Source: Macrostomum hystrix
Taxonomy: Eukaryota; Animalia; Platyhelminthes
Direction of reading: 5' to 3'
DNA length: 64,000 nucleotides
Assembly (NCBI GenBank): GCA_950097015.1
Contig: CATNEN010000038.1
Coordinates: 27,342,001-27,406,000 of the forward strand
The notes below the pieces were generated by a model, which did no database searches, was not told the origin of the DNA, and saw nothing but the letters and a program-made list of their open reading frames with translations. A program made the position numbers and the translations under genes. Below, in pieces: positions 18 through 60,777 of the stretch (position 1 is its first letter; every line of letters starts with the position of its first letter).

Positions 18-350
18 TTCATTGTGTCTAACATGTACTTCATTCTGTCTCACAGGTACTTCATTGTGTCTAACAGGTACTTCATTCTGTCTAACAGACC
101 TACTTCATTCTGTCTAACAGGTACTTCATTCTGTCTAACAGGTACTTCATTCTGTCTAACAGGTACTTCATTCTGTCTAACAGGTACTTCATTCTGTCTC
201 ATAGGTACTTCATTCTGTCTAACATTTACTTCATTCTGTCTCACAGGTACTTCATTGTGTCTAACATGTACTTCATTCTGTCTAACATGTACTTCATTGT
301 GTCTAACATGTACTTCATTCTGTCTAACATGTTCACCGTCTTGTCTAACA
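18..350. repeat. 21-bp minisatellite (TTCATTCTGTCTAACAGGTAC)
   Basis: About 15 tandem units. Confidence 0.95.
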
Positions 351-778
351 GATGCTTGATCCTATTTAACAGTTTGTAGGTTTACTATTTAATATAACAT
401 TAAAACACTGAGAAGTAGTGAACCCTTTCTAAAGCCTTATATCTTGAAGCCTAGCGGAATCTATTTTTCAACCTAAAATGCACTTTCTGAAAGCAAGAAG
501 TGAGTTCACCAGATAAAGTCAAGGCATTGTTTAGCAGCTCTCATGCCTGTCAAACACTGCCAGTTATTTATTAACCTGCCTAGAATGCTGTTATATATTG
601 AGCGATGGCGTTATACGAGTGCAAATATAAGCACTTAAACAAAGCATCAGTTTATAACTTCATTCTGAAACCCTGCGCAGAAATATATTTTCAGTACTAC
701 TAACAGTAATAAACACAGTAACGGAAAAGTTCAATAACATTTAAAGTAATTTTTAAGTACATTTAGATTTTACAGGTC

Positions 779-2275: not shown

Positions 2276-5200
2276 TCATCGCTTAGCAAGGTGACGATGC
2301 TTTAACGGCCTACGCTCAGCCCGGAGGCGCAGAGAACCGATGCCGCAGTCGGGCATATCGCCGACGTACGGCGGCGGAGCGACAGTCGGCGAGTCGGCCG
2401 ACAACGCGTCATCCAACGGTTTTGGCTGCAGGCGAGCGAGAAACGGCAGCGGCAGATCTGGCACGCAGTGCAAAATGAACTGAACTCTTGGCAGCCGGTC
2501 CGGTTGCAGCCACGTCTGAATGCACAGCTCGTGTCTGGCTGTATCAACGCATCGAACTAAGCCGACGCCGATGCAGCCGTGCCTGTCCGGCATGCGGTTA
2601 AGCCGACACAATAGGCGGTGATTCTTTGCCTGCGATGATGACGTAGGATTGTCCGCGGACTGGTCGAAATTGTCTTCGTCAATAGTGCACAGGCCAACTA
2701 AAGAGGCGTTTAGGACCTGCGAGTTAACCGAGGAAGAATTTCAATTATTTTTTTGAATATCACAAATCTCAGGTATTGTTGGTCATAGAAGTTTATTAGG
2801 GCGAGAATCTCAGGTATTCTTGGTCATAGAAGTTTATTAGGGCGAGAATCTCAGGTATTCTTGGTCATAAAGTTTATTAGGGCGAGAATCTCAGGTATTC
2901 TTGGTCATAAAGTTTATTAGGGCGAGAATCTCAGGTATTCTTGGTCATAAAGTTTATTAGGGCGAGAATCTCAGGTATTTTTGGTCATAGAAGTTTATTA
3001 GGGCGAGAATCTCAGGTATTTTTGGTCATAAAGTTTATTAGGGCGAGAATCTCAGGTATTTTTGGTCATAAAGTTTATTAGGGCGAGAATCTCAGGTATT
3101 CTTGGTCATAGAAGTTTATTCGGGCGAGAATCTCAGGTATTTTTGGTCATAGAAGTTTATTAGGGCGAGAATCTTAGGTATCGCAAGAATCTGAGGTATT
3201 TTAGGTCATAGTTTATGACGAGAATCTGAGGTATTTTCTGCAATAGTTTATGACCAGAATCTGAGGTATTTTCTGTCATTCTTTATGACCAGAATCTGAG
3301 GTATTTTCTGTCATTCTTTATGACGAGAATCTAAGATATTTTCTGTCATTCTTTATGACGAGAATCTGAGATATTTTCTGCCATAGTTTATGACGAGAAT
3401 CTGAGGTATTTTCTGCAATAGTTTATGACCAGAATCTGAGGTATTTTCTGTCATTCTTTATGACCAGAATCTGAGGTATTTTCTGTCATTCTTTATGACC
3501 AGAATCTGAGGTATTTTCTGTCATTCTTTATGACCAGAATCTGAGGTATTTTCTGTCATTCTTTATGACCAGAATCTGAGATATTTTCTGTCATTCTTTA
3601 TGACGAGAATCTGAGATATTTTCTGTCACTCTTTATGACGAGAATCTGAGACATTTTCGGTCATTCTTTATGACGAGAATCTTAGATATTTTCTGTCATT
3701 CTTTATGACCAGAATCTGAGGTATTTTCTGCCATAGTTTATGACCAGAACCTGAGGCATTTTCTGCCATAGTTTATGACCAGAATCTGAGGTATTTTCTG
3801 TCATTCTTTATGACCAGAATCTGAGATATTTTCTGTCATTCTTTATGACGAGAATCTGAGATATTTTCTGTTATTCTTTATGACGAGAATCTTAGATATT
3901 TTCTGTCATTCTTTATGACCAGAATCTGGGGTATTTTCTGCCCTAGTTTATGACCAGAATCTGAGGTATTTTCTGCCATAGTTTATGACCAGAATCTGAG
4001 GTATTTTCTGTCATTCTTTATGACCAGAATCTGAGGTATTTTCTGTCATTCTTTATGACCAGAATCTGAGATATTTTCTGTCATTCTTTATGACCAGAAT
4101 CTGAGGTATTTTCTGCCATAGTTTATGACCAGAACCTGAGGTATTTTATGTCATTCTTTATGACCAGAACCTGAGGTATTTTCTGCCATAGTTTATGACC
4201 AGAATCTGAGGTTTTTTCGGTCATAGCCTTAACCTTGTCCAATGAGCCAGCGCTGAGGCTGTCTCTACCGGAGCCGGCAACGAACACGCCCTCCAGTGTA
4301 TGAAACGGCACCCGATATACCGGACAATTGTTCAACGGCAGAATGGTAGCCAAAACCGACAATTCGCGCTGTTGCGGCGCACCGTATCGGGTTGGCTGAC
4401 TGCGCAATTTGCCCGGCACGCAGATTAACAAATACTGGGCCATAGCGCTTTTGTCGCTGTTAGTAGTATTATTAGTAGTTGTTGTTGTCATTGGTAACGG
4501 CGGTTGCCAAGAGCGTAATCTCGGCGACGAAGAATCGTTCCATAAGTAGTCCGGAGTAAGAAGTGATGGCAAATTTCTACTTGGCAATTCAGATTCAATT
4601 TGAATTAAATAGCTGGGCGATAATAGGCGAATAGTCTCGCATAGTAACACCAGGCCAAGGCCATTTGTCCAGCCCATTGTGTTAACTACTAGAGGGTGGC
4701 TTAGCTCCGAGGCTAATGCTGTCAGGCGAGCTACAGCGGATAAATAGTCAGTGGGGCTGCCCGGACTGCAGCCGCCGAGACAGCAGGCGGCTATGATGCT
4801 GGGTCGGTGATCTTGCTCGCGGCTGGTCGAGTCGTCAGTTGAGCAGTCGCTAGTGGCGCCGGTTACTGACGCACTGAGTTGATTGAAAATGAAAGTTTTG
4901 GTTAGCTGCATAAATATACATAATTTGAGAATTTAAAATGGTGCTAAAAAGCCACTGTTTATGCTTGAGTTTAGCTATGATGACGACCTAATAAGAGCGA
5001 ACAAAAAACTGACAGACATAGAATATAACGCCAAACAGAACAGACAGACAGACAGACAGGCTGACAGACAGACAGAAAGGCTGACAGACAGACAGCCATC
5101 AAAAGCTCTTCGCTGTCCAAAGCCACCGGACCGGACGGCCTTTCCCCCATCGTCCTGAAGCATCTTGGACCAAGGGGAATTGCCTTCCTCTGCTGCTTAT

Positions 5201-8200
5201 TCAATCTGAGCCTTACCACCAGTATCGTTCCTAGCACCTGGATTTCTGCCAAGGTAGTGCCTCTTCTCAAAGCGGACAATGATGCTACCTGCAGCTCTTC
5301 CTACAGGCCTATCTCCATCCTTTCTCTAGCCGCCAAATTGCTGGAAAAGTGCCTGCTGTCCACCTTTCAGAGCGCACTCCTGCTTCCCACCTGGCAGCAT
5401 GGCTTCCGCGCGGGGCACTCCACCACCACCGCCCTCACCAGCCTCAACAGCTCCATCAGCAACGGCCTTAACCAACCTAAACCTGCTGAGAGGACTCTGC
5501 TCGTCGCACTTGATCTGCAAAAAGCATTCGACAAAGTTAATCATGCCAAGCTCCTCCGGATGCTCTTCAACTCCAGCCTTCCGAAATGCCTCACCAGGTG
5601 GCTCAGTGCGTACCTATGCGGTCGGAGCACGAGAGTCCTCTTCCGCGGCTCGCTCTCCTCGGCCAGGCGTCTCAGAGCGGGCGTGCCTCAGGGAGGGGTT
5701 CTGTCCCCGCTTCTCTTTGCCTTTTACATGAGCGACATCCCGGCTCCTCCTGCCCAGATCCAGCTGACTCAATATGCTGACTCCCTGCTTGTCACCTACA
5801 AAGCTGTCTCCAGGGCCCACGTCAACTACTGAGCTCCTGTCTGGGCGCCCTACCTCAGCCCCTCCAGCTGGTCGCTTATCCAGACTGCGCAGAACGCAGC
5901 GCTTAGAATCATCACCGGGTGCCACAGCTGCTCGGGCATCGATCATCTCAATGACGAATGTATGATCCTGCCGGTGTCCCTGCACTCTGAACTTCTGGCA
6001 GCGCAGTTCTGAGTGCAAGCGCTTCATCCGTGCCACCCATGTCATCACCTATCGCTCGTCCTAGCCCCGCGGCGGCAACTCCGCTCGTCGCTCACCTCCT
6101 GCGCCACCAACTTCATCAACGTGCATCAGCCGCTTCTCCGTCCTTCCTCCGGTCCGCTCACCACCCACCAACTTTCCAACGCCCTCCACACCGCTTGCGT
6201 GCAGAAACGCCTGCTGGACCGGCAACCTAATCGGGTCCTCGGCGCGCCACCGCCTGTGATCGACGCTTCCGAGACGCAGTTGCCGCGCTTCGCCCGGGCC
6301 ACGCTAGCCCAACTCCGGTCGGGTTTCTGCCTTCACCTGGCCAGTTATAAGCACCGCCTCGGCCAGGAGTCGCCTGCCACCTGCCCGCGGTGCCACGGCG
6401 AGGAAGAGTCGGTCACGCATCTGTTCGCCTGCCCGGCTCGTCCCACCTCGCTCGTCCCGCGGGATCTCTGGTCCCAGCCCAAGACCGTCTGGGCCCTCTT
6501 CGCCGAGCTTTTCCCAGGAGCAGGTACTGGCCCTGGCCCGCCGAGCCCAGGTTAACATACACAGATGGAAAGGCTGACAGACAGGCAGGCAGGCAGACAG
6601 CTAGCAAGGACTAATAAGCAAAAGATGAGTAATAACCAAAAATAGCGTTGACTATCCAGCCAGCTCACCAAGTATCTTTAGGCAGCTCCTGTGCAGCGAA
6701 TGCCTGATGAGTGAAGGGCGGCCCCAGCAGCGGCTGACGCACCAGAGTGAGGGACAAAAATCCCGGCGGAGTAAACTCAGTCTGGCCTGGGTCGCAGTCC
6801 AGGTAGGCGACACCTGTTTGGACAGACGGTGGGTGCTGCGAGTGCGGCTTCAAGGTATTCGTCGAGGTCAAGCCTTGATTGTCGCCTTAAACTTGGCTTG
6901 GCTACAATTCTCGCCCTAAACCTATAACGGCGAAGCTAAGATTCACGCCTTAAAACAAATGACGGCGAATCAAAGATTCTCGCCCGAAACCTATAACGGC
7001 GAAGCTAAGAATCTCGCCTTAAAACAAATGACGACGAAGCTAAGATTCTCGCCTTAAAACAAATGACGGCGAATCAAAGATTCTCGCCCGAAACCTATAA
7101 CGGCGAAGCTAAGAATCTCGCCTTAAAACAAATGACGACGAAGCTAAGATTCTCGCCTTAAAACAAATGACAACGAAGCTAAGATTCTCGCCCTAAACAT
7201 GTAACGGCGAAACTAAGATTCTCGCCTTAAAACAAATGACGGCGAATCAAAGATTCTTGCCCTAACCCTATAACGGCGAAGCTTAGAATCTCGCCTTAAA
7301 ACAAATGACGGCGAAGCCAAGATTCTCGCCTTAAAACAAATGACGACGAAGCTTAGATTCTCGCCTTAAAACAAATGACGGCGAAGCCAAGATTCTCGCC
7401 TTAAAAAATGACGGCGAAGCTAAGAATCTCGCCTTAAAACAAATGACGACGAAGCTTAGATTCTCGCCTTAGAACAAATGACGGCGAATCAAAGATTCTC
7501 GCCCTAAACCTATAACGGCGAAGCTTAGAATATCGCCTTTAAACAAATGACGGCGAATCAAAGATTCTCGCCCTAAACCTATAACGGCGAAGCTAAGATT
7601 CTCGCCCTAAACCTATAACGGCGAAGCTAAGATTCTCGCCCTAAACCTAGAGCCTTTCGCCTTACTAAGAGAAGCAGTTTTCCTTCAATTGCAAATCACA
7701 TACCATCAACACCAGCAGACAGAAGTTGATTAACTAGGCACCTGGAAATGCTACTCTTGCCGGAGTTTCTAGGACCGCAGACAACAAACTGCTGCTGTTT
7801 CTTATCCTTCTGATTGCACGCAGCGGCTGCAGCAGCGGCGACAGCATCGCCAATTCGACCTGTCCAAAGCTGATCGTCTGGCAGGTGAACGCGAAACTCA
7901 TCCGAGACGGAGCGAAGAAGCTTAACTGAGCCAAGATACAAGCGATGAGTTGGCGACTCGGACACCAGCTGCAAACTGAGCGGATGATGCTTCGGCGGCG
8001 CTAGCACGTACCTTAGGGATCGGGATTTGGTTTTCATCAATACTGACGCATTCATTGGAGACAGTGGAAGCAGGTAAGCAGGCACACGCTCACACAGGTG
8101 TGTACTTTCACTGTGCCTTGGAGGTTGGCCCTCAAAAGGCTGTAAATTGCACGACAAGGCACCAAGCCTTTTCTACGCGGACCTTGCAGCGAGAGGCAAA

Positions 8201-11545: not shown

Positions 11546-13551
11546 TCAATTACGCCAAAGAATTTCAACTTCGTCAGTTCGAAACCTCTGAGTACAGGTG
11601 GTGTCCTGAAGCGGTGTAGTCAGGCCGCACCTGAACATTTCCATGCCAGCCTGAGCTATCATAGCCCCATTATCAATGCAGAATCGATGATCAGTGGCAT
11701 ACAGTTTGGCTCCCCGCTCCTCAGCCATCTGACCAACCATCTCCTGAAGGCGGACATTGCAGGCAACACCGCCAACTAATAGCACCTCCTGGGAGCCGCA
11801 GTGGGCCATAGCTCGCTCGGTCATTTCTGTTAGCATGGCGAATATGGTCTCCTGCAGGCTATAGCACAGATCAGCTTGGCTATATTCTCCGCTGTCTAAT
11901 AAACTAGGAGCCCGCTCCTCTAAGTAGCTTAGCAGACCGCTGAACGATACGTCCATGCCCTTCACAGTGTAGGGCAGTTTGACAAATTTACTGCCATCAG
12001 ACTGTTTCGCTAGCTGTTCAATATTGTAGCCAGGACTGGGATCGTTGGATAAGCGAATGCAGCGAGCGAACCGGTCCAGACAGTTGCCAACGGCTATGTC
12101 AAGGGTTTCACCGAATATGCGGTAACGGCGCTGACTGTAGGCTATCACCTGCGGGTCGGTGAATCAGCGGGTGACTGGCTGTGTGAGTTACTGGGTGAGT
12201 TACTGGCTATCTGAGTGACTGGCTGTGTGAGTTACTGGGTGAGTTACTGGCTATCTGAGTGACTGGCTGTGTGACTGGCTGGGTGAGTTACTGGCTATCT
12301 GAGTGACTGGCTGTGTGACTGGCTGGGTGAGTTACTGGCGATGTGAGTGACTGGCTGTGTGACTGGCTGGGTGACTGGCTGGGTGAGTTACTGGCGATGT
12401 GAGTGACTGGCTGTGTGACTGGCTGGGTGACTGGCTGGGTGAGTTACTGGCGATGTGAGTGACTGGCTGGGTGACTGGCTAGGTGAGTGAATGACAGGTG
12501 GAATAACTGGCTAGGTGAGTGAATGACAGGTGGAATAACTGGCTAGGTGAGTGAATGACAGGTGGAATAACTGGCTAGGTGAGTGAATGACAGGTTGAGT
12601 ATCTGGCTAGGTGAGTGAATGACAGGTTGAATAACTGGCTAGGTGAGTGAATGACAGCTGGAATAAATGGCTAGGTGAGTGAATGACAGCTGGAATAACT
12701 GGCTAGGTGAGTGAATGACAGCTGGAATAACTGGCTAGGTGAGTGAATGACAGCTGGAATAACTGGCTAGGTGAGTGAATGACAGCTGGAATAACTGGCT
12801 AGGTGAGTGAATGACAGGTGGAATAACTGGCTAGGTGAGTGAATGACAGGTGGAATAACTGGCTAGGTGAGTGAATGACAGGTGGAATAACTGGCTAGGT
12901 GAGTGAATGACAGGTGGAATAACTGGCTAGGTGAGTGAATGACAGGTGGAATAACTGGCTAGGTGAGTGAATGACAGGTGGAATAACTGGCTAGGTGAGT
13001 GAATGACAGCTGGAATAACTGGCTAGGTGAGTGAATGAATGAAGATTTAGTGAACCAAATAATCTTCAAAAACCCTGTCTCATGAATTGGGTATATTTCT
13101 AGTTAAAACTGGCAACCGCACAAGCCCAGCAGCCAACCTGAGTATTGCCGCCGCTGACATATAGCACTGTCGGATTGACAGCTCCAGTAATTAATCGGCC
13201 CATTTCAATGTGCCCAATGCAATGATTGACAGCTACAATTGGCTTGCGCCACAGCTGAGCGACAGTGCGTGCCACCAGAGCAACGCTAACCAATGGGGCG
13301 CCCATACCGGGACCTTTAGTGTAACAGATTGCGTCAATATCACTCGGCGTTAACTGGGCCTCCTTCAACGCGTCGGCTAGAACATCCAGCGCGTGCTGCT
13401 GATGATGCCTGGCTGTCTCGGACGGTTGAAAGCCTTCGCCTGGCGGCGTGACAAAGGTGACCCTGGGGTTGGCTAGTACTTGGCCGTCCTCGCGCACAAT
13501 GCCAATGCCAAGCTTGTTAGCGCTGCCTTCGAAGCCAATTGTAATGAGCAT
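11546..13551 (-). CDS. OSGEP: tRNA N6-threonylcarbamoyltransferase OSGEP/Kae1; exons 13551-13138 and 12148-11546; 338 aa
   Basis: [27 protein letters not shown]|[37 protein letters not shown]; single phase-0 GT-AG intron. Confidence 0.97.
12169..13037. repeat. Compound minisatellite filling the OSGEP intron: 12-16-bp subunits, then 32-bp units
   Basis: GTGACTGGCTGG-type subunits to about 12480, then CTAGGTGAGTGAATGACAGGTGGAATAACTGG. Confidence 0.95.
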
Positions 13552-22371: not shown

Positions 22372-25365
22372 ATGTTTTCAAAGCAGCCTGTCTTGTGGTT
22401 CTGTTGCTTTTGCTACTGGTGTTGTGTGCCAATCCAAGCTACAGCAGCCACTGCCGCCTCTCAGTTGTCCTGCGACTTTGATCAGCACCATGCTTGTGGC
22501 TATGTCATCCAAGGCTGGCTAATGGAAGCTGTTGAAAACACTGGCATATTATGCGTCATTCCCAGACGAAATGGCTACCTATTATTCACCTTCACTCAGA
22601 AGGCAGCAGTAGAGAGGCTTGATATTTGCCTAAAGTTTAATTACCGACAAACAGATGATAAGCAGGTCTGTTTTAATGGAAAGCCTAGGCTAACTATGGC
22701 ACTGGATGCCGCCGTTCATTGGTCACTTGAGACTACGAATAATGATTTTAAAATAGACAGCGATATTGGATGGACTAGATCGCAGGTAAGCTTTTTAGAT
22801 CTTCAGTTAAATTATGTTATCTTCCCAGATCGCCTGTTGAAGTCCCAGATCTTCATTTGAAGTCCTAAATTTATCTTCCAAGTGAAAGTCTCTTATCGTC
22901 CCAGATCCTCAGTTAAATTCTTCCCAGATCCTCAGTTAAATTCTTCCCAGATCCTCAGTTAAAGTCTTCCGAGATCCTAAGTTAAATTCATCCCAGATCC
23001 TCAGTTAAATTCCTCCAAGATCCTCAGTTAAATTCTTCCCAGATCCTCAGTTAAATTCCTCCAAGATCCTCAGTTAAATTCCTCCAAGATCCTCAGTTAA
23101 ATTCCTCCCAGATCCTCAGTTAAATTCCTCCAAGATCCTCAGTTAAATTCCTCCAAGATCCTCAGTTAAATTCTTCCCAGATCCTCAGTTAAATTCCTCC
23201 AAGATCCTCAGTTAAATTCTTCTCAGATCCTCAGTTAAATTCTTCCAAGATCCTCAGTTAAATTCTTCCCAGATCCTCAGTTAAATTCCTCCAAGATCCT
23301 CAGTTAAATTCTTCTCAGATCCTCAGTTAAATTCTTCCAAGATCCTCAGTTAAATTCTTCCCAGATCCTCAGTTAATGTCTTTCCAGATCCCAGATACCA
23401 TTGTCAAGTCTATCAGTCTTCTAGATGGTGCTTGCAATTTATGTCATTGGTGCTGCCAATGGGCTGAAAAAATGTTCTCCACATGTACAAAAATCCCTCC
23501 CAACAAGGTGTCTCTAAGCGTTCGTCGCAATCAGAGCCAACTTCGCATCAACGCATGCGGAGTCTGCCTAGACAATCTGACCGCCGTTGCCGATCGCTGC
23601 CCTGTGAACCCCGCGGATTTAAACTGGGGCCTTCGCCTAGTGGCTGTTGATCCGCTGCTCTGGTTGGCCCCATTCGCTGGTTTAGCCTTCATCTGTCTGG
23701 CTTCGGGTATCGCCCTGTCTTTGTCGCTTTCCCGACGTCGTCAGAATCGTCAGCGTCGGCAGGCCGGCCTGTGCTGCTACTGCTGCTGCTCAGCCGATGG
23801 AGAAGAGGCTGCAAGCAATGCCGACTGCGGCAGTAATAAATGCAGGCGTCAGCAGCAGCCTCTGCAGACTCCTAGAACTCCGCCTAGCATTCATCATCAT
23901 CGTCAGGATCTTCAACAGCAGCGTTCGCATCCGCACAGTTCGCAGTTATTATTGTTGTTGGGCGACACTGAAGCAGATAATCAAACTGCTGAGAATTCTA
24001 AAGTAGCTTTACGACTGTCTGCACATCAGCAGTTTGTTGAGGTGAGCTTCGAATTATTCTTGATCTAGCATAAATAAGGAATTAGAATTGCATCTCTTTG
24101 TAGGGATTAGTTTCGCTGAGTAAGGATTAGTATAGCTGGGTCAGATTCGGTGTCCTTTGGTCAGGATTAGTGTCCCTTGGAAAGGATTAGTGTCCCTTGG
24201 TCAGGATTAGTGTCCCTTGGTCAGGATTAGTGTCCCTTGGTCAGGATTAGTGTCCCTTGGTCAGGATTAGTGTCCCTTGGTCAGGATTAGTGTCCCTTGG
24301 AGAGGATTAGTGTCCCTTGGAGAGGATTAGTGTCCCTTGGTCAGGATTAGTGTCCTTTGATCAGGATTAGTGTCCCTTGGTTAGGATTAGTGCCGCTGGG
24401 TCAGGTTTAGTGTCCCTTGGTCAGGATTAGTGTCCCTTGGAGAGGATTAGTGTCACTGGGTCAGGATTAGTGTTCCTTGGTCAGGATTAGTGTCACTGGG
24501 TCAGGATTAGTGTCACTGGTCAGGATTAGTGTCCCTTGGTCAGGATTAGTGTCCCTTGGAGAGGATTACTGTCCCTTGGTTAGGATTAGTGCCGCTCGGT
24601 CAGGATTAGTGTCCCTTGGAGAGGACTAGTGTCCCTTGGTCAGGATTAGTGTCACTGGGTCAGGATTTGTGTCACTGGGTCAGGAACTCAGGATTAGTGC
24701 CGCTGGGTCAGGATTAGTGTCCCTTGGTCAGGATTAGTGTCGCTGTGTCTGGATTAACAATCACTGGGTCAGGATTAACGTTGCTGGGTCAGGATTTAGG
24801 CTATGTTAGGAGTAGTGTGGGGATTAGTGTACTTGGCCGTCTGCTACCAAAAATAATGTGCCGTGGCCATAATCCCCTGAAATAATATTGTTATTATGAT
24901 TGTGAGTTTAAAAGGATTAGTGTCGCCGGATTAACTGTCTAATCTCGCTTGTCACAGACCACATCGGCTGGATTATCCGCCGCTGCCCTACCGGAGACTT
25001 CCGCCTCGGCTTGCGGCAGCCGCGGCCACCGGCCCTTGAGCATTCCGGCCACGTGCACTTTTGTCATGTCGGCAGAGCGCTTCGGCGCCCCGACTCCCAC
25101 AACGACGCCAACGCCGCAGACTCCGTCATCCGCGCCGACCGCGGCACCTCAGCGTCAGCATTCGACCAGCCTGTCTCTGTCCTGCCCAGGACGCGATCTG
25201 GAATACTTTCGCGACCCCGACGCCAGCAGCGACAGCGACGGTGATGGCGCCGGCGGAGGCGGGGACGCCGCCTCCCGGTTGCTAGTCGCCTCCGACGCCT
25301 CCACCGGAGCGCCGACTGTGCCTCGACGGTTTAGCCCCACACTTTCTGGAGCTAATGTTGATTGA
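22372..25365 (+). CDS. Single-pass type I membrane protein with MAM-like ectodomain; exons 22372-22785, 23388-24041, 24958-25365; about 491 aa
   Basis: Hydrophobic N-terminus; SCDFDQHHACG...W resembles a MAM domain start; TM helix LLWLAPFAGLAFICLASGIALSLSL followed by RRR and a CCYCCC cluster; strong donors GTAAGC and GTGAGC, both introns phase 0. Confidence 0.65.
22797..23391. repeat. 23-bp minisatellite filling intron 1 of the MAM-like gene
   Basis: AGATCCTCAGTTAAATTCTTCCC units. Confidence 0.95.
24104..24797. repeat. 20-bp minisatellite in intron 2 of the MAM-like gene
   Basis: TCAGGATTAGTGTCCCTTGG units. Confidence 0.95.
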
Positions 25366-28390: not shown

Positions 28391-28562
28391 ACATTTTAGA
28401 TATTTCAAATCACAACAAACGTGATTGATTTTGATTTCTGTCTTGCAGGCATCGCAGATGGCGATTAGACTATCGCCTTAGGATCTACGCATGCGTTGTC
28501 AGCTCAACCAACTCAATTGAGTACCAATTGTTTCATCTAGTTGCTAGGTATTCTTTGTTGCA

Positions 28563-31500
28563 ATGCTGAAAAGTGTGAGCGGAGGTGGCGGCGGACCCAG
28601 CACCGTCAGCTGCATCAGCGTCATCGGTATGTCAGCCAAAACTCTGCCGGAGGATCAGAAAGTCAACGGTGTCGGCAAGTCATGCTTGTGCAATCGATTT
28701 GTAAGGCCCAGTCAAGATGATTTCCGAATGCAGCATATTTCTACGGTGCACGAAGCCGACTTCTCTGGCCAGGTGAAACTATTTGGTTGCTGTGTGAGCG
28801 ATTCAAAGTGATTGATAGATAACAGGTGTGTACATTTGCCCTGAATTTCTCGTCGTCAGGCAGTGTACACTCTCACTGTGCATTGGCGGTTGGCCCTTAG
28901 GGGCATAAATTGCACGCCAAGCCCCAAAGCCTTCTCTCCGCGGCTGCGCCCCAAATGAATGTGGCCTCGCCGCCATACCTTAAGAATCTAGAATGCTCAA
29001 ATGTTCTGATTTTAAGAATTAACGAAGAAAAATCTAGATGCTATATAGTTGTTAACTGGGATAAAAAAGTACGGACTTATCAACTGAACCCGATCGCGCA
29101 CCTGTGCAGGTGTTGCGCAACAGCCACTGGCTCTACTGGGGCTGCGTCGAGCGTCGTTCCGGCCGCCTCTGTCACGTTGTTGAACAAACCGAATTCGTCA
29201 ATGACAAAGATTTGCGCCCATTTCCTGCTAGCGAGCCGTACTATGTTCGCTGCTCGGCTACTAAACTATACGCCTCACAAAAACTAGCCTGGGTGTGCTC
29301 TGATCAGTTGGGATTTGAAAATGATTATCCCAAACAGCGGGCGCCGGATGGTTCGCTGCTAGTTGGCGGATTTCTAGTGTGTGTGGATCTGTCGCAGGAT
29401 TTAGACAGACAAATTCAGTTCCTACAGGTATGGATAGTTTTGATTGAGCCATTAAGTTAAAATATTTGAAATTTGAAAACTGCATTCGTAAATACGGTCG
29501 GACCATAGGCGAGAAGTCCTGCAAGAAAATTGAACTAGAAAAATGCGATAATAATTGCCATTGTATCATTGTTTGTGAGTGATATAGGGCCTATTTGCAT
29601 GTCTGTTTTGCTAAATAACTGCCTATAACTTTACTGTCTATGGGTAAGAGGTCTTGAGAGTTATTATTTATTTTAGTGCACTAACTAAAAATATAGGTCA
29701 TTATCTCCTACGTTTTTGTGAAGCCTCAATGCTTGGAACAAATCGGCGCTTTAGTATTAGCGACTAGCTAATCATACCCCCATCGACCTTACTTGATCTA
29801 TGCGTAGCACAAAGTAATTAACATTATTTGACTATTTTTAATTTGGAGTTCACAATCAAACCCCACTACTTATAGCTCTATAAGTAATATAAAACTACGA
29901 TGCATCCAAAATTCTTTTGCGCAGGAAGTGGCGCTTGTATTACAGAAGACCAAGCGGCCCGCCCTGCTGGTAGCTACCAAAGTAGACAGCTGCCTACCGC
30001 AACAGACATCTAGTAATGCTGATTTGACTGCGTCGGCAATGTCGGCTGCCTACGCAAAAAAGTTAGACATCCTCCGTAAAGAATGCCGCCAATTTCGATG
30101 CTTTGTCGGCGGCGGAAGCGGCGGCGGAAGCAGCGCCAGCGGTGGTAGCGTCGGTGGCGGCGGCACCGCAAGCGCGGGCGGTGGCAGCAGTGGCGGACCT
30201 TACATTGTGGAGACTTCGGCTGCTCTGAATATTAATATTGATGAAGCTTTTCAGTGAGTGGAAGTTCTTGTGTATTTATTTGGCCGTTTGATAGATTGGG
30301 GTTGAAAATACATTCAGTTAGATAAGAGTATAGCCCTAATTAAGTTGAAGGAGATGAAGAGCCAGGTGCAAAGTCACAGCTATTACGTGGCGCTGGGTGA
30401 CTAGGGAATCTAGTGTCTTCCTTAGGGACACAAATTGTTTCCTTAAGTCAAACAATTTGATCAGAGTCTCAGAGGCTTACTAAACTGACCCCAACTGTTG
30501 CCACCCGCTCAGATACCTGTTGGCATTGATCGAAAAGGACAAATCGCGAATGGTGAAGCCGGGCTCGTTCGCCGACGCGTTTGTTGCCAGGCGAGCCCAG
30601 TGCGAATCGGCCACCTGGGCTTATCACCGCCTGCTGCAGAGTACAATGAAGCGTCAACTGCTGTTTCAGTCGTTCAGTACTTGGCAGTCTAGTCATGCTA
30701 GTTGTCCGGAATTTCTGCGGCTAATTGAACTGCAGGTTAGAGAAATCTGCTATTGGAATTTGGGAGTTGTGACGATAATCTGAGTCTAATTGGGACAGGT
30801 GAGGATTATCTGAGTCTAATTGGGACAGGTGAGGATTATCTGAGTCTAATTGGGGCAGGTGATGATTATCTGAGTCTAATTGGGGCAGGTGAGGATTATC
30901 TGAGTCTAATTGGGGCAGGTAAGGATTATCTGAGTCTAATTGGGGCAGGTGAGGATTATCTGAATCTAATTGGGACAGGTAAGGATTATCTGAGTCTAAT
31001 TGGGGCAGGTAAGGATTATCTGAGTCTAATTGGGACAGGTGAGGATAATCTGAGTCTAATTGGGGCAGGTGAGGATTATCTGAGTCTAATTGGGGCAGGT
31101 AAGGATTATCTGAGTCTAATTGGACAGGTGAGGATAATCTGAGTCTAATTGGGGCAGGTGAGGATTATCTGAGTCTAATTGGGGCAGGTAAGGATTATCT
31201 GAGTCTAATTGGGGCAGGTGAGGATTATCTGAGTCTAATTGGGGCAGGTAAGGATTGTCTGAGTCTAATTGGGGCAGGTAAGGATTATCTGAGTCTAATT
31301 GGGACAGGTGAGGATAATCTGAGTCTAATTGGGGCAGGTGAGGATTATCTGAGTCTAATTGGGGCAGGTAAGGATTATCTGAGTCTAATTGGGACAGGTG
31401 AGGATAATCTGAGTCCAATTGGGGCAGGTGAGGATTATCTGAGTCTAATTGGGGCAGGTGAGGATTATCTGAGTCTAATTGGGGCAGGTGAGGATTATCT

Positions 31501-34500
31501 GAGTCTAATTGGGGCAGGTGATGATTATCTGAGTCTAATTGGGGCATGTGAGGATTATCTGAGTCTAATTGGGGCAGGTAAGGATTATCTGAGTCTAATT
31601 GGGGCAGGTAAGGATTATCTGAGTCTAATTGGGGCAGGTGAGGATTATCTGAGTCTAATTGGGGCAGGTAAGGATTATCTGAGTCTAATTGGGGCAGGTG
31701 ATGATTATCTGAGTCTAATTGGGGCAGGTGAGGATTATCTGAGTCTAATTGGGGCTGGTGAGGATTATCTGAGTCTAATTGGGGCATGTGAGGATTATCT
31801 GAGTCTAATTGGGACAGGTGAGGATTATCTGAGTCTAATTGGGGCTGGTGAGGATTATCTGAGTCTAATTGGGGCAGGTGATGATTATCTGAGTCTAATT
31901 GGGACAGGTGAGGATTATCTGAGTCTAATTGGGGCAGGTGAGTATTATCTGAGTCTAATTGGGGCAGGTGAGGATTATCTGAGTCTAATTGGGGCAGGTG
32001 ATGATTATCTGAGTCTAATTGGGGCAGGTGAGGATTATCTGAGTCTAATTGGGGCAGGTGATGATTATCTGAGTCTAATTGGGGCAGGTGATGATTATCT
32101 GAGTCTAATTGGGGCAGGTGAGGATTATCTGAGTCTAATTGGGGCAGGTGAGGATTATCTGAGTCTAATTGGGGCAGGTGATGATTATCTGAGTCTAATT
32201 GGGGCATGTGAGGATTATCTGAGTCTAATTGGGGCAGGTAAGGATTATCTGAGTCTAATTGGGACAGGTGAGGATAATCTGAGTCCAATTGGGGCAGGTG
32301 AGGATTATCTGAGTCTAATTGGGGCAGGTGAGGATTATCTGAGTCTAATTGGGGCAGGTGATGATTATCTGAGTCTAATTGGGGCAGGTGAGGATTATCT
32401 GAGTCTAATTGGGGCAGGTGATGATTATCTGAGTCTAATTGGGGCAGGTGATGATTATCTGAGTCTAATTGGGGCAGGTGAGGATTATCTGAGTCTAATT
32501 GGGGCAGGTGAGGATTATCTGAGTCTAATTGGGGCAGGTGATGATTATCTGAGTCTAATTGGGGCATGTGAGGATTATCTGAGTCTAATTGGGGCAGGTG
32601 AGGATTATCTGAGTCTAATTGGGGCAGGTGAGGATTATCTGAGTCTAATTGGGGCAGGTGAGGATTATCTGAGTCTAATTGGGGCAGGTGAGGATTATCC
32701 TGCTTTAATTAAGACACGAGGATTATCCTAGTCCATCTGGGACAGATGTCCTACAAATCAGATCCTCATTCGCCCAGGGCTCACCTCGCGCCCGCGAGGA
32801 GTTCGATCGCCATCTGCACGTCCTGCGTCGCGAGGCCCTATCCGATCGGCGTTCAGCCATCGAGAGAACTCTGAGAATATTTTTTGAACGCGTTGTACCA
32901 GACTGTTCGGCTGCTCAAAGATTGGCCGCAATGTCCTGGACAGCCGCGGTGGCTGATATGACTTCGACGGCGGCCGGAGATCCGGATGCGGCCAGCTGCC
33001 TGGTTGACACGGGCCAGATTGCCTGGCATCAGTGTGTGGCCTACCTAAACTCTCCAGAGGATGCCAGAGTGCCGTTGGACTACTTGGGTGACGAGATCGC
33101 TTCTAGGCCGGTGTTTGAGAAGCACACAGACAGGCTAAAGGCACAACAGCGAACTGCGGAACTGCGGACTTATCTACTGCTGGCCATGAAAGCTTCGAGA
33201 GCCGTTCGCTGGGGCACGCCGCTGGATGAGGTGGTCAACGGCGAGCTGGTGCCAGGCTGGGATGAGCTGACTGCTCAGCTGGGCCCAGCCGATGTGGCCA
33301 AGGCCTACGCGGATGCTCAGGTTTGTCAGACCGCTGTACACTTTCAGGCGATCCTCTAGAGGATTGGATTAGTTAACTATGGGAACACCCAGGGAGTATG
33401 AGTGGCAGAGCGGTTAACGCGTTTGTCTCTTGAACCAAGGTCGCTGAGCTCGATTCCACGGCGAGGCCACATTTATTTTGGGCGCAGCCGCGGAGAAAAT
33501 GCTTGGGGCTTGTCATACAATTTACTACCTTGAGGGCCAACCTCCAAGGCACAGTGAGAGTGTACACTGCCTGGCAATGAGAAAGTCAGGGCAGATGTAC
33601 ACAACTGTGTGCTCAGGAGTCAGCGAAATTGACAGTATTGCCTCCTCGCTGGCTGCGGGTCTAGTGTCTAGATCGATCGTCCATATTTTTTTAAGAATAA
33701 GTTATTTTTAAGTAGTTCATTAGTTTCTAATATACGTCAATTTTAGGAAACCCCTTAGTTTCTTAGATAGGTCAGTTTTAGGAAATCGTACTATAGACTC
33801 AACGAGTGGCATTTGAGAATTTTAGGAAATCCCTAAGTTTCTAGGATTACTGAATTTTAGAAAATCCCATAGATTCTACTATTTAAGAAAGAATTTCAGA
33901 AAATCCCATAGATTCTAATATTTGTTTTAGGGAAATGTACTAGCATCTAGGAGAAGTCGATTTTCGGAATTCCATAGATTTTTGGAATTAACTACCGCAC
34001 TACTTATCTGCCTACTCATAGTAGAAATATAAGCAAATATAGTCCATTGGATTCTCGAAATGCCTATAGGCTTCTCTGGAACGCCGCGCCCTGGCCGATC
34101 TAAACGAGGCCCTGATGGAACTGTCCGGCTATTTCTATCGGCCGCAAACTGGCCGAGACACCCTGGCCGAGATGGCCAATCAGGCTTGGCTAACCATGTC
34201 CAAACGACTCGATAGTCAACGATTCGCCAATCTGTTAGACCAGCGAGAGCGTTTAAACGACGCCCTGCTGCGCCACCTGCAGTTCGTTCGCGGCGGCTCA
34301 GACGCTGCTGCTTGCTTTTACGCATCGGCCTGCGTTGATCGCCTGGTGCCAGACGTTCTTAATAACTGCGTCGGCGATTTCGCTAAGAATTCGACTGCAA
34401 CAGCTGCGAGTTGCGAGGCTGAGTCGCCTATTCTACTACTTAGCACGGAGCAACTGACTCAGAGATTCAAGCAGAGTTGCCGCAGTCTCTGCCAGACTCA

Positions 34501-37500
34501 GGATTCCTATCGGATGGGCGATCGGCTCTATCGGCTGTCGTTTCGGTCTCCGCGACTAAATTCGGCGAGGCTTAGCGGCTCATTGACAACAAAATGCAGG
34601 CACGACTATATTGGCTGCGTGCTGCTCTACGATAGCCGCAACGCTCTAGCCAACCTGCAGGAACTGGCTGCCACAGCGCCGCTGCTATTAGAGGCTCAGC
34701 AAATGCTCACAGGTTTGTGCCGCAAAGAATTTAGACTCTTTGGGGCTGCTCTTTGGAGTCATAGCCAATAGAGACCTTTGATGTGCCGCCAACCCCATCG
34801 CCTCAGTAGTTTCCTTTGAAGTGCCGCCAAACCCATCACTTTGATCGTTTCCTTTGATGTGCCGCCAACCCCATCACTTCGATGGTTTCCTTTGATGTGC
34901 CGCCAACCCCATCACTTCGATGGTTTCCTTTGATGTGCCGCCAACCCCATCACTTTGATAGTTTCCTTTGATGTGCCGCCAACCCCATCACTTCGATGGT
35001 TTCCCTCGATGTGCCGCCTACTGCATCGCATTAATAGGGTCCTTTGATGTGCCGCCAAGCCACTTCCATCAGTAGGGAACTTTGAGAGGCTTTTTAATTA
35101 GTGATAAGGCTAAAACACAGCTTCATGCATTCAACTGTTTAATCACCAGTGCGCACCGGCTCGGAGTCTGTCGACCAGCCCGAGAGCGAATACGAGTGCC
35201 TAGTACCCTCGGCTTCGCCATCCCCGGCTGCCTCGCTGAAGGAGTCCGACGAGTCATTTTATCAATCAACTAATTCCACAGCTAACCAACTAGCTAGCGT
35301 CAGTAACGACAGCAGCAGCAGCGTCGCAACACCCCCTGCCAAGCAGCTATTGAAGCCTAACAACAGCCTCGGCACTAATTCAGAGTTTCGCATTATTGTG
35401 GCCTTTTTAACTGCAGTCCCATCTGCAAAGTTAACTGGCGACAATGAGTCAACAGCCGACAATGGGACAACTAATAACAACGAATTTCTGGAATTGAAAT
35501 CCGCCGGCCTTCGATTGGCTAGCCGATTGAATGCTCACTATCTAGTTGTTGAAGGCGGCGGTGGATTGGCTGCCGCGGATCCGGCCGAACTGTTGGCCAG
35601 ACTGGCTCTGGAGCATCTCCTGCCTGCTAGCTTCTACAGACGGACACCGGATATGCTCTACCTGCGCAGGTGTGTCCGACCATGCGTCTATCTCCCTGTT
35701 CGAGCTGTCAGTTCTGTGTGTGTGTGTGTGTCTTCTGTCTTTCTGTTTAATAATAATGATAAGTGCAGGAGGGCTGCCGGCAATAGCACATCATTTAGTG
35801 ACACTAGACCCGCAGCCAGCGAGGAGGCAATTCTGCTCATTTCGCTGACTCCTGAGCACACACGCACACAGATACTGTACGCAGGCACTTTTTCTGTGCC
35901 ATGGAGATTGGCCCTTACGGGCGTAAATTGCACGACAAGCCCTCAAGCCTTCTCTCGGCGGCTGCACCCCAAATAAATGTGGCCTCGCCGTGGAATCGAA
36001 CTTAGGGACCTTGGTGCGAGAGGCAAACGCGTTAACCGCTCTGCCACTCACACCATTTACCTTTCTGTCTACTCTAGCTGTGTGTTCTGTGTGTCTATTT
36101 TATCTCTCTGTACATTCTTGCTGTCAATTCTAGCTTTCTAAATATTTAAAATCCTTTGTTTTGTAAAGAACACTTATTCTTTGAAATCCCCTATCAGAGA
36201 CGCCTGCCAGTTGAGCCTAATCTGTGTCCTAGCCTGCGGCGACAATCTCAGTGTGGCTCGTGAGCGTCTAGCCCGTCTGGTTGCAGCCATTGCCGGCGGC
36301 CGATCGAGTGCCTGCGCCTATCGAGGTCGCAGCCTAGCTGTGGAGCTGTGCTCACGCCGACTGCTCATTCGCCTGGCCTCATTTCACACCGCTTGGCGGC
36401 TGTGCGATTCCCACGCATTCCACGGTGCCTTATTTGCCTATTCACCTGAGCGGAAGGCCTCGATAGCTTGCGCTGAAACCTTAGCTAGCAATATATCCCA
36501 CCGAATGCCCGTGACTCTGATCGCTTTGGGATCTCATCAAACCGACGGTGATCAGCTGGCTTCTCTCCGAGATAGCGGCGTCCGATTTGTGCAGCTCGAC
36601 ATTGGCGGCAGCAGTTGGTTTGCGGATTTCGCCAACGAATGCCTGGCCGCCAAGGACCTGACCGAGCGTCGGTTTCAAGATCGCTTCCCGGCATTTGTGG
36701 CCGCTTCAACAGGCTGCAATTTTCCTGATTCATTTGTCTCGCCGCAGCCGCCGCCGCCGCCGCAGCAACAGTTATCCACGTCGATTAGTCAGTCCAATTC
36801 GCCCTGCAACGGTAATAACAATAGCAGCAGCGCGTATTACGATTGCAACGATGACCATGACGACGGAGAGGACGATAATTCTGTCTACTCCAGCGCCGAC
36901 TCCATCGGTGGCAGCGCTCAGAAGGCGCCTATCTATTCTTGTCCGACTTTGCCTTCGCGGCCTCCGCTAGCTTCGCAGGAGATCTGCGAGGTGTACGCCG
37001 ATCCGCCAGACGCTCGCCAGTTGATGCATCATCGACCTAAATCGTCTTCAGACCCAGTTGGTGACAATGCCGAGTCCACCTACGCTTACACCTGCAACGC
37101 ATTGCCACCGGGTACTTATCGATTAGTGAATAGCAGGTCAGACTATTGTCATCAGCAGCCGGTCACTTCGTCGGCTTCGAACAACCAGCCGCTGCGCGAC
37201 GATCATCAGTCCGAGCGTCGACGTTCGCACAGCGGCGACAGTCAGCGGCAGCCTCAGCCAGCTGCAACGGTGACAGTAACAGCTGGGAAGCCGAACAAGT
37301 CTGTCGCTAATTCATTCTTTAACCAGGCTGCCACAATTCACCACAGTCTGGCTAGACTGGCTAGACTCGGTTACAACAACAGTAATAATAACAATAATAC
37401 TACTAGCAGTAGTCAGCCTCACAAAGTCTACCTAGCCGTGCCGGCGCCGCCATTGACATTGGCCGATTTGGCAATCTGCACCGATTCGCGCCAGCTATCG

Positions 37501-38142
37501 CCAGCCGATGGCCCGGTGCCGCAGCTGGTTGTAACCTGCGTTGAATTTGTTGAACGCGAGGGCGGCCTTCGCTCCGAAGGTGTCTACAGATTGTGCGGCA
37601 ATGCCACTGAGACCTCGGCCGTCATGGACCTGCTACTGCGAGAACCCAATAGTAACCTGGCCAGTCTCAAGCCCAAGCCGTCAATCTGTGCTGTGACCAG
37701 CGCTCTCAAACAGCTCCTAATGAAACTGGAACCGTCGCTTATACCCGGCCGTCTACTTGGCGGCCTACTCAAGGTCACGAGTACGCCTAGACAATATCCG
37801 AATTTTCAACCGAATGTCACCTATTTTCTAGTGAATAATCTTAGCCAACCAGCGCTAGCCTGCCTGCGTTACATTGTCCAGCACCTGCATAGGATCAGCT
37901 GTCATGCTGCTGATAACCGTATGACATCGGCTAATCTGGCTGTCTGTTGGATACAGACTCTGCTACCAGCTAGCGATCCTAGGATTAGCCTGGCCTATCA
38001 GGACCAGCTGCAGACTCTAATTGACACCCTGATTCGTTATCCGAATCTGCTCAATCCGCTGCCAGTTGTGAGTAGCGAATCGTCGACACTGATTGACGAT
38101 AAATCTCCAATACCACCGCCGTTGCCATCTAGAAGACTGTGA
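28563..38142 (+). CDS. p190RhoGAP (ARHGAP35/ARHGAP5 family); exons 28563-28772, 29110-29427, 29925-30253, 30513-30735, 32778-33320, 34070-34712, 35150-35669, 36198-38142; about 1576 aa
   Basis: N-terminal GTPase-like domain GVGKSCLCNRFVRP...HWLYWG...EQTEFVND, FF-like helical region, C-terminal RhoGAP with arginine finger EGVYRLCG and NRMTSANLAVCW; all seven introns GT-AG with consistent phases. Confidence 0.92.
28822..28973 (-). mobile_element. SINE family A internal fragment (p190RhoGAP intron 1)
   Basis: Core and hairpin module match the other copies. Confidence 0.75.
30770..32700. repeat. 30-bp minisatellite filling p190RhoGAP intron 4
   Basis: GAGTCTAATTGGGGCAGGTGAGGATTATCT, about 64 units. 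Confidence 0.98.
33399..33668 (+). mobile_element. tRNA-derived SINE family A, near full-length copy (p190RhoGAP intron 5)
   Basis: A box TGGCAGAGCGG, B box-like GCTCGATTCC, shared core GGGCCAACCTCCAAGGCACAGTGAGAGTGTACAC and 3' region GCCTCCTCGCTGGCTGCGGGTCTAGTGTC repeated across the window. Confidence 0.85.
34776..35058. repeat. 38-bp minisatellite in p190RhoGAP intron 6
   Basis: TTTGATGTGCCGCCAACCCCATCACTTCGATGGTTTCC, about 7 units. Confidence 0.9.
35750..36051 (-). mobile_element. tRNA-derived SINE family A copy with (ATT)n tail (p190RhoGAP intron 7)
   Basis: Reverse strand has GAGTGGCAGAGCGGTTAACG and GTTCGATTCC, same core and 3' region as the 33399 copy. Confidence 0.85.
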
Positions 38143-56043: not shown

Positions 56044-59899
<3,856 letters not shown>

Positions 59900-59903
59900 C
59901 TGC

Positions 59904-60112
59904 GGGTCAGGATGAAATGCTAGATGAGTCAGTGGGTCAGGATGAAATGCTAGATGGGTCAGTGGGTCAGGATGAAATGCTAGATGGGTCAGTGGGTCAG
60001 GATGAAATGCTAGATGGGTCAGTGGGTCAGGATGATATGCTAGATGGGTCAGTGGGTCAGGATGAAATTATGGATGGGTCAGTGGGTCAGGGTGAAATAA
60101 TGGATGCGTCAG
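59904..60112. repeat. 30-bp minisatellite immediately upstream of the 59900 acceptor
   Basis: GGGTCAGGATGAAATGCTAGATGGGTCAGT, about 7 units. Confidence 0.92.
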
Positions 60113-60777
60113 TAGTCATAGATCGATTGTCTAGATGGGACAATTTTACAGAAAATAACAAGACATGAACTTTTAACTTGCGAAGTGCAATTAAAAATAT
60201 TTTTTTAGTTTTAACATCCACAAAAAAGACAACAGAATAGCTGTTAAATATTTTAGCAATTTGAAAAGCTCAGAAGACAAGACTTAGTAAAAAAAGACAA
60301 AGACCAGAGGGAAAAACCTGTCATATGATGCTAGGAATAATAAAACTTCTAGACCAGAAATTAATTGCAACTCAATAAAACAGAAAAAGATACCACAAGG
60401 AAACAAAGAAGTTTAGTCAGACAATTTGACAAAGCAGAATCAGAATGCCCTTACAACAAAAAAAATAGGTGCTTAGCAATAAACATAAATATTCATACAA
60501 CTTGTTAAGAAGAAAGACAAAAGACAGAAAAATAATAAAATATCTGCTTTGGTTCTTGGAATATTTCTGACAACATTCAGTCGTGAACTTGAATTGAAAA
60601 TTTGCACGTGAAAATTGTGCAATTATAAAATAGATAAAATAAACGACACAATCTTTATTGCTATTACAGTTAAATATCAATGGTGAAGTCTATTTAAACA
60701 TTTGTCAAATTTTGAACTTTTTTAGTTCTGCAAGTTCTGTGAGACTTAAAGGTAGCTGTTTGTAAATGCCCAGCATA

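What the first reader, a model, noticed from the sequence alone, without database searches (positions are those of the whole stretch)
30712..32782. p190RhoGAP intron 4 is an amplified exon end carrying about 60 AG|GTRAG sites
Exon end TTTCTGCGGCTAATTGAACTGCAG|GTTAG aligns with unit TATCTGAGTCTAATTGGGGCAG|GTGAG, visible even in translation (EFLRLIELQG vs DYLSLIGAG). The acceptor ATCAGATCCTCATTCGCCCAG|G matches the unit at 15 of 22 ungapped positions and ends exactly 3 periods (90 bp) after the last clean unit CAG at 32687. Donor and acceptor therefore occupy the same CAG|G position of the unit, as the tandem-duplication model of intron birth predicts. Most internal units have a donor (CAG|GTGAG or GTAAG) closer to consensus than the real one, plus a CTAAT branch-like motif. 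They could act as decoys or recursive ratchet sites; using one as the donor would retain the stop at 30781. Vertebrate p190 genes encode this region in one very large exon, so the intron may be lineage-specific.
Basis: partly seen in the sequence, partly recalled or inferred. Interest (0 to 1): 0.78.

Follow-up and report, generated by a model that had tools for sequence, protein, structure and literature searches.

The report
Intron built from amplified exon end
In a probable flatworm signalling gene, a 2-kb intron is made of about 68 head-to-tail copies of the last 32 bases of the exon before it and is cut out whole in the RNA seen; it was likely born from that copying, a variant of a known but rarely traced route to new introns.

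Summary
The intron (30736-32777, 2,042 nt) is real: spliced contigs join its flanks in 4 of 4 runs, one study. It holds 64 clean 30-bp units plus four decayed ones. Of 64 unit joints, 58 read AG|GT and 46 read AG|GTRAG, not about 60. The exon's last 32 nt begin GT, hold CTAAT, end CAG and match the whole unit at 18/24 ungapped (coding background max 14, n=929). The intron's last 30 nt match that piece at 13/24 (4 of 1,695). The classic AGGT version fails: the next exon starts with Gly in 120 of 121 homologs. A GT...AG-bounded duplication needs no AGGT and fits; about 60%. Rival (about 28%): an amphioxus/F7-type donor 'mirage' inside an older intron. The intron is absent in 41 of 41 other p190 loci, but so are the gene's four other introns. 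Recursive or decoy use is unsupported. Minisatellites fill 32% of the window. The scan noted splice-site minisatellites before in other genomes. New variant of a known kind.

The parts
30513..30735 (+). Upstream coding exon of p190RhoGAP, ending in CAG (Gln), phase 0
   Evidence: Spliced contigs, 4 of 4 runs end at 30736; translation colinear with homologs
30704..30735 (+). Inferred source piece: last 32 nt of the exon, begins GT, holds CTAAT, ends CAG
   Evidence: 18/24 ungapped to the unit from its GT; coding background max 14/24, n=929
30736..30768 (+). Working donor (CAG|GTTAGA) and first, decayed, 33-nt unit
   Evidence: likeness to unit start 9 of 1,500 background
30781..30783 (+). In-frame TGA met if any internal donor is used
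   Evidence: Read-through translation
30769..32687 (+). Homogenised core: 64 units (63 of 30 nt, one of 29), 16 variants, mean pairwise difference 1.4/30, a 9-unit block repeated
32688..32747 (+). Two decayed units (21/30 ungapped; second aligns with a 1-2 nt shift)
32748..32777 (+). Last 30 nt of the intron with the working acceptor; starts GTCC like the exon piece; pyrimidine-enriched relative to the unit
   Evidence: 13/24 to the exon piece, 4 of 1,695; 11/18 to the unit, highest of 19 acceptors; RNA
32778..33320 (+). Downstream coding exon, begins GGC (conserved Gly), FF region
   Evidence: Contigs cover it in 4 of 4 runs; Gly in 120 of 121 homologs; Pfam FF1 weak hit
28449..38142 (+). Host p190RhoGAP gene; RNA-supported exons 28449-28772, 29110-29427, 29925-30253; RhoGAP domain in ORF 36142-38142 (3' exons inferred)

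Best explanation
The intron is about 68 head-to-tail copies of the exon's last 32 bases and is removed whole in the RNA contigs seen, and it was likely born by that duplication. Inferred steps: (1) The exon piece began GT, held CTAAT and ended CAG, so copying it head to tail would create CAG|GT at every joint. Cutting from the first joint to the last CAG would restore the old reading frame exactly, with no AGGT needed in the old exon. (2) The first-generation donor would read CAG|GTCCGG, 6 of 9 on the consensus, within the 5-8 seen at 17 donors in this window. (3) Later substitutions likely improved the donor (GT.AG) and added pyrimidines at the last acceptor, while ordinary minisatellite turnover amplified and homogenised the middle and left the edges decayed. 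(4) Today the spare sites are likely silent: by analogy with human F7 the most upstream donor would win, internal CAGs lack a pyrimidine tract, and any retained unit brings an in-frame stop, so errors would likely be destroyed by nonsense-mediated decay.
For: Shown: precise junction in 4 of 4 runs; no indel against homologs at the junction. Whole-unit match 18/24 starting at the unit's GT; the unit's first 8 nt match the exon 5/8 (GT plus at least 5/8 in 14 of 929 coding starts) versus 4/8 for the real intron start. The last 30 intron bases match the exon piece 13/24 (4 of 1,695), including GTCC, which the central units lack. All 2,042 nt parse into 68 unit-length blocks. In a test free in phase across 15 arrays and 29 exon edges, this exon end (17/24 with the unit variant used) is the only edge above its background maximum. 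No intron at this site in 41 of 41 covering p190 loci, 27 of which show an intron elsewhere. Five purine-to-pyrimidine differences at the working acceptor; 64 of 65 internal GTs give a stop within 15 nt. Most-upstream-donor rule: PMC1557585, abstract and Discussion.
Against: No close relative without the intron was seen, so gain is not dated. The other four introns are equally absent elsewhere (0/43, 0/40, 0/44, 0/27). Acceptor likeness is not significant in the gapped test (107 of 1,690). The unit and the real donor share GT.AG where the exon piece has GTCCG, which a copied older donor explains more simply. The discriminating matches are short (8-24 nt) and were noticed after the fact. Minisatellites fill 32% of the window and many introns, so arrays arise without intron birth. 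A single 32-nt first copy may have been too short to splice (not tested). The RNA is assembled contigs from one study.
Confidence: 0.6

Rival explanations
1. Donor 'mirage': an older short intron existed; about 22 nt of exon end plus about 10 nt of intron start were duplicated and amplified inside it, and the old 3' part was later lost or overrun.
For: The class is documented in amphioxus and human F7 (PMC3087553 section 16; PMC1557585). The unit start resembles the real intron start (9 of 1,500) and carries a consensus donor. Arrays inflate many introns here, and intron absence elsewhere is gene-wide.
Against: It leaves as coincidences the match of the unit's 5' part to the exon upstream (14 of 929), the unit-like and in-register acceptor (9 of 1,695) and the GTCC start of the last copy. 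No non-unit remnant longer than about 30 nt remains.
Confidence: 0.28
2. A whole pre-existing mini-intron of about 30 nt (GT...CTAAT...CAG) was amplified head to tail, and the exon likeness is incidental.
For: The unit has the outline of a complete intron, and both ends are in register. The scan noted such arrays elsewhere (unchecked).
Against: It does not explain 18/24 identity to the adjacent exon. The shortest RNA-supported intron in this gene is 259 nt.
Confidence: 0.05
3. The internal AG|GT joints are used as recursive (ratchet) sites or kept as decoys that tune p190 level through nonsense-mediated decay.
For: 58 of 64 joints are AG|GT; 46 score above the real donor; CTAAT in 62 of 64 units. 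Contigs cannot show rare or unstable forms.
Against: GGGG precedes each internal CAG (5/12 pyrimidines versus 6-10 at 19 real or inferred acceptors). The intron is only 2 kb. Six joints have lost the AG. AGGT also occurs in the units of two other array-bearing introns, on the antisense strand. No contig used an internal site.
Confidence: 0.04
4. An ordinary intronic minisatellite whose likeness to the exon is chance.
For: About 29 arrays in 64 kb give many chances.
Against: 17/24 was reached once in 15 x 210 background trials and 18 never, against 29 edges tested; separate matches at both intron ends.
Confidence: 0.03

Closest known systems
[quoted passage not shown] Seen: PMC3443670 section 8 and passages; PMC4974935 Introduction and passages. 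The original papers were not read.
   Same: New intron made of duplicated exon sequence; donor and acceptor at one position of the unit; protein unchanged.
   Different: The old exon held no AG|GT (next codon is a conserved Gly); the piece is bounded by GT and AG, so AG|GT arises only at copy joints. About 68 copies, not 2-4. No intron-less close relative shown.
Amphioxus 'mirage' minisatellites (Adh3, globins BflGb6/BflGb9, troponin C, PGBD5). Seen: PMC3087553 section 16 in full; PMC3902484 one passage; Canestro 2002 only as a citation.
   Same: Minisatellite that repeats an exon edge with splice signals; homogenised middle and divergent edges; normal splicing.
   Different: Mirage units span a boundary of an existing intron. 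Here the whole unit maps to exon sequence and the array reaches both splice sites. Probable flatworm.
Human F7 intron 7 37-bp VNTR (PMC1557585; abstract and Discussion read)
   Same: Real donor followed by repeated, silent pseudo-donors; the most upstream site is used even against somewhat stronger ones.
   Different: Five to nine identical sites at the 5' end only; here 58, diverged from the real donor, filling the intron.
Variable tandem repeats at exon-intron boundaries in human segmental duplications (PMC2812944; passages)
   Same: Units of about 30 bp at boundaries, linked to new introns.
   Different: About 4 copies on average, often alternatively retained; here any retained unit carries a stop.

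Membership tests
Tandem-duplication intron gain (Rogers, strict) | Intron is a copy of adjacent exon sequence | tested here: met
   18/24 whole-unit match; last copy 13/24
Tandem-duplication intron gain (Rogers, strict) | Old exon contained AG|GT, so the next exon starts GT and resembles the unit start | tested here: not met
   Starts GGC; Gly 120/121, Val 0; score 0
Tandem-duplication intron gain (any form) | Donor and acceptor at the same unit position, protein unchanged | tested here: met
Tandem-duplication intron gain (any form) | Phylogeny shows gain: close relatives lack the intron | tested here: inconclusive
   0 of 41 loci have it, but none is identifiably close and the other four introns are absent too
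Mirage / F7-type junction minisatellite | Tandem repeat whose first element overlaps an exon edge and repeats its splice signal | tested here: met
Mirage / F7-type junction minisatellite | Only the authentic sites are used in mRNA | tested here: met
   4 of 4 runs, contigs only, one study
Mirage / F7-type junction minisatellite | Unit is part exon, part pre-existing intron | tested here: inconclusive
   Unit 5' 8 nt match exon 5/8 and intron start 4/8
Mirage / F7-type junction minisatellite | Length variation between alleles or cells | not testable with these tools
   No run identifiable as DNA was listed
Recursive splice sites | Strong acceptor (pyrimidine tract) abutting a donor | tested here: not met
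   5/12 pyrimidines, GGGG before CAG; the criterion is recalled, not from a paper read
Recursive splice sites | Intermediate junction reads or lariats | not testable with these tools
   Only assembled contigs available

The most novel reading that the evidence does not exclude
A precise spliceosomal intron was born from a GT...AG-bounded 32-nt exon piece, with no AGGT proto-splice site, and grew to 68 copies. Minisatellite formation of this kind is a recurrent source of new introns in this lineage, which would help explain why all five tested intron positions of the gene are absent from other animals.
Probability: 0.2. Interest if true: 0.75.

Novelty: new variant of a known kind. Interest (0 to 1): 0.48.

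Why it matters
Gained introns rarely have a traceable source (PMC4974935, Introduction). Here the source appears to sit next door and the route differs from the textbook one: a piece bounded by GT and AG, not one containing AGGT. If close relatives lack the intron, it widens the set of duplications that can make a precise intron and gives a testable case in an animal. It is also a natural test of how the spliceosome picks one donor against 46 nominally stronger ones. If the intron proves old, it is a large but ordinary mirage.

Tried and rejected
No whole genome is held, so there is no genome-wide count of such introns and no search for unit copies outside the window; inside the window none lay outside the array at 9 or fewer mismatches. 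No holder on record as RNA was listed; the four runs proved spliced when laid. Reads were laid only on stretches flanking the array (28400-30768 and 32700-33385), so events wholly inside it are unseen. The only named close protein (P0001, Macrostomum lignano) is a poor model around the junction and says nothing on the intron. The strict AGGT model was rejected. My first reading, a mirage in an old intron at 65%, was lowered. Synonymous-codon shuffling of the exon-end peptide gave only 160 of 3,000 at or above the observed score: weak support. A search for papers on p190 gene structure returned nothing useful; recursive splicing with tandem repeats gave one unrelated paper. Zhuo et al. 2007 is not held. 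The idea that arrays here generally copy exon edges was not borne out: 2 of 29 edges, 1 clear and 1 borderline.
Full report
Observation. Tandem Repeats Finder gives an array at 30769-32699, period 30, 64.4 copies. Of 64 unit joints, 33 read CAG|GTGAGG, 12 CAG|GTAAGG, 1 CAG|GTGAGT, 12 CAG|GTGATG and 6 lack the AG. So 46 are AG|GTRAG and 58 are AG|GT. The core has 16 variants, a mean pairwise difference of 1.4 of 30, and one 9-unit block repeated, as in ordinary minisatellite turnover.

Gene and splicing. Four coded runs hold spliced contigs. They skip 337, 497 and 259 nt at three upstream GT..AG introns and stop at 30736. They resume at 32775 with the upstream exon end as loose end in 4 of 4 runs. 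The intron is 30736-32777, 2,042 nt, phase 0, the fourth seen in these contigs. Pfam gives RhoGAP strongly and FF1 and pG1/pG2 weakly. The nearest named protein is from Macrostomum lignano, so the source is probably a macrostomid flatworm (inference). That species has 15% simple and tandem repeats (PMC5730564, passages).

Background. Arrays cover 32% of the window. Among 14 introns chosen because they carry an array and have both ends placed (mostly by eye), 13 are 65-96% array. Introns 1-3 of this gene have none. AGGT occurs in the units of two other array-bearing introns on the antisense strand. An intronic array, or an AGGT in its unit, is therefore not notable here. The exon match is.

Is the exon match real? 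Anchored at CAG, the exon end was equalled by 2 of 1,690 window sites, the intron start by 9 of 1,500, the acceptor by 107 of 1,690; the downstream exon start scored 0. Ungapped, the acceptor was equalled by 9 of 1,695 and was the best of 19 acceptors, 11/18 against 9 for the next. In a phase-free test on 29 exon edges of 15 arrays, only this edge exceeded its background maximum (17 against 15, n=210; 17 rather than 18 because a one-change variant was used); 17 appeared once in all backgrounds. Synonymous shuffling gave 160 of 3,000, which is weak.

What was copied? The textbook model needs AG|GT in the old exon (PMC3443670, section 8). The residue after the junction is Gly in 120 of 121 homologs (many are isoforms; P0001 left out as a poor model) and never Val, with no indel. 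That form is excluded. But the exon's last 32 nt (30704-30735) start GT, hold CTAAT and end CAG, and match the unit from its first base at 18/24 ungapped; the best of 929 coding 24-mers in the same phase was 14. The unit's first 8 nt match the exon 5/8 (14 of 929 for GT plus at least 5) and the real intron start 4/8. The intron's last 30 nt start GTCC, like the exon piece and unlike the central units, and match it 13/24 (4 of 1,695). The intron parses as 1 + 64 + 3 = 68 blocks. Head-to-tail copying of a GT...AG piece makes AG|GT at each joint, and removing all extra copies restores the old sequence. This step is inferred. These short matches were found after the fact, and the shared GT.AG of unit and real donor fits an older donor more simply, hence 60% against 28%.

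Age. A metagenome scan gave 48 p190 loci. The site is covered in 41 and reads through in all 41; 27 of these show an intron elsewhere by a gap heuristic, 7 loci do not cover the site, several are near-duplicates and none is named. The control weakens the point: the four other introns are also absent (0 of 43, 40, 44 and 27). Gain in this lineage is likely, but the array is not thereby shown to be the cause.

How it works now. Of 64 internal donors, 46 score 8-9 of 9 against 7 for the real one. In human F7, the most upstream of several repeated donors is used even against stronger ones (PMC1557585, abstract and Discussion); transfer to a flatworm is an assumption. Internal CAGs follow GGGG, with 5 pyrimidines in 12 against 6-10 at 19 acceptors (one read 1 nt off). 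The working acceptor has 10, through five purine-to-pyrimidine differences from the unit. Any internal donor keeps the TGA at 30781, and 64 of 65 internal GTs give a stop within 15 nt. Errors would be non-productive. Nothing seen supports ratchet or decoy function.

Known kinds. Repeats of exon edges are 'mirages' in amphioxus, already proposed as a route to new introns (PMC3087553, section 16; PMC3902484, passage), and occur in human F7 and in segmental duplications (PMC2812944, passages). Multi-copy exon-derived introns are reported in fission yeast (through PMC4974935, Introduction). Searches listed no flatworm case and no GT...AG-bounded form; most listed papers were seen only as titles and abstract starts, the library lacks most subscription papers, and Zhuo et al. 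2007 could not be read. PMC10468722 (passages) leaves repeat content for later work. No supplements were read. The scan's own notes list 42 word matches on donor minisatellites in at least 25 genomes; they are unchecked and were used as leads only.

Verdict. Real feature, known class, with an unusual and traceable origin that is likely but unproven. New variant of a known kind; interest 0.48.

Noticed in passing
window 22786-23387 (+): A 23-bp array and its decayed edge fill an inferred intron and run into the next exon (0 of 250, 1 of 210). Donor and acceptor fall at different unit positions and a 7-nt near-direct repeat flanks the intron: a second junction repeat. No RNA check.
   Followed up: partly
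window 28448-28449 (+): Contigs in all 4 runs carry 21-24 extra bases before this acceptor (table 8): possibly a spliced leader or a short upstream exon. The letters were not shown.
   Followed up: no
window 28773-33321, p190 introns 1-5: None of the five intron positions is shared with any of up to 44 other p190 loci, which suggests heavy intron turnover in this lineage.
   Followed up: partly
window 2716-4233 (-), 12148-13137 (-), 59123-59387 (-), 59899-60113 (-): Arrays start or end within 2-22 nt of inferred splice sites in NOL9-like, OSGEP-like and ankyrin genes (names recalled from the translations); none extends significantly into the exon.
   Followed up: partly
window 28795-29031 and about 33395-33480: High-copy repeat in intron 1 (contig depth in the thousands) and a tRNA-like, possibly SINE, stretch in intron 5 (seen by eye).
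   Followed up: no
window 5065-6555 (+): Reverse-transcriptase-like ORFs of a probable LINE, opposite to and inside the NOL9-like gene (label recalled).
   Followed up: no
window 18-372 and 779-2048: Two neighbouring arrays (21 and 20 bp) share the core CTGTCTAACA; the first has an acceptor-like CTAACAG|GT on the + strand.
   Followed up: no
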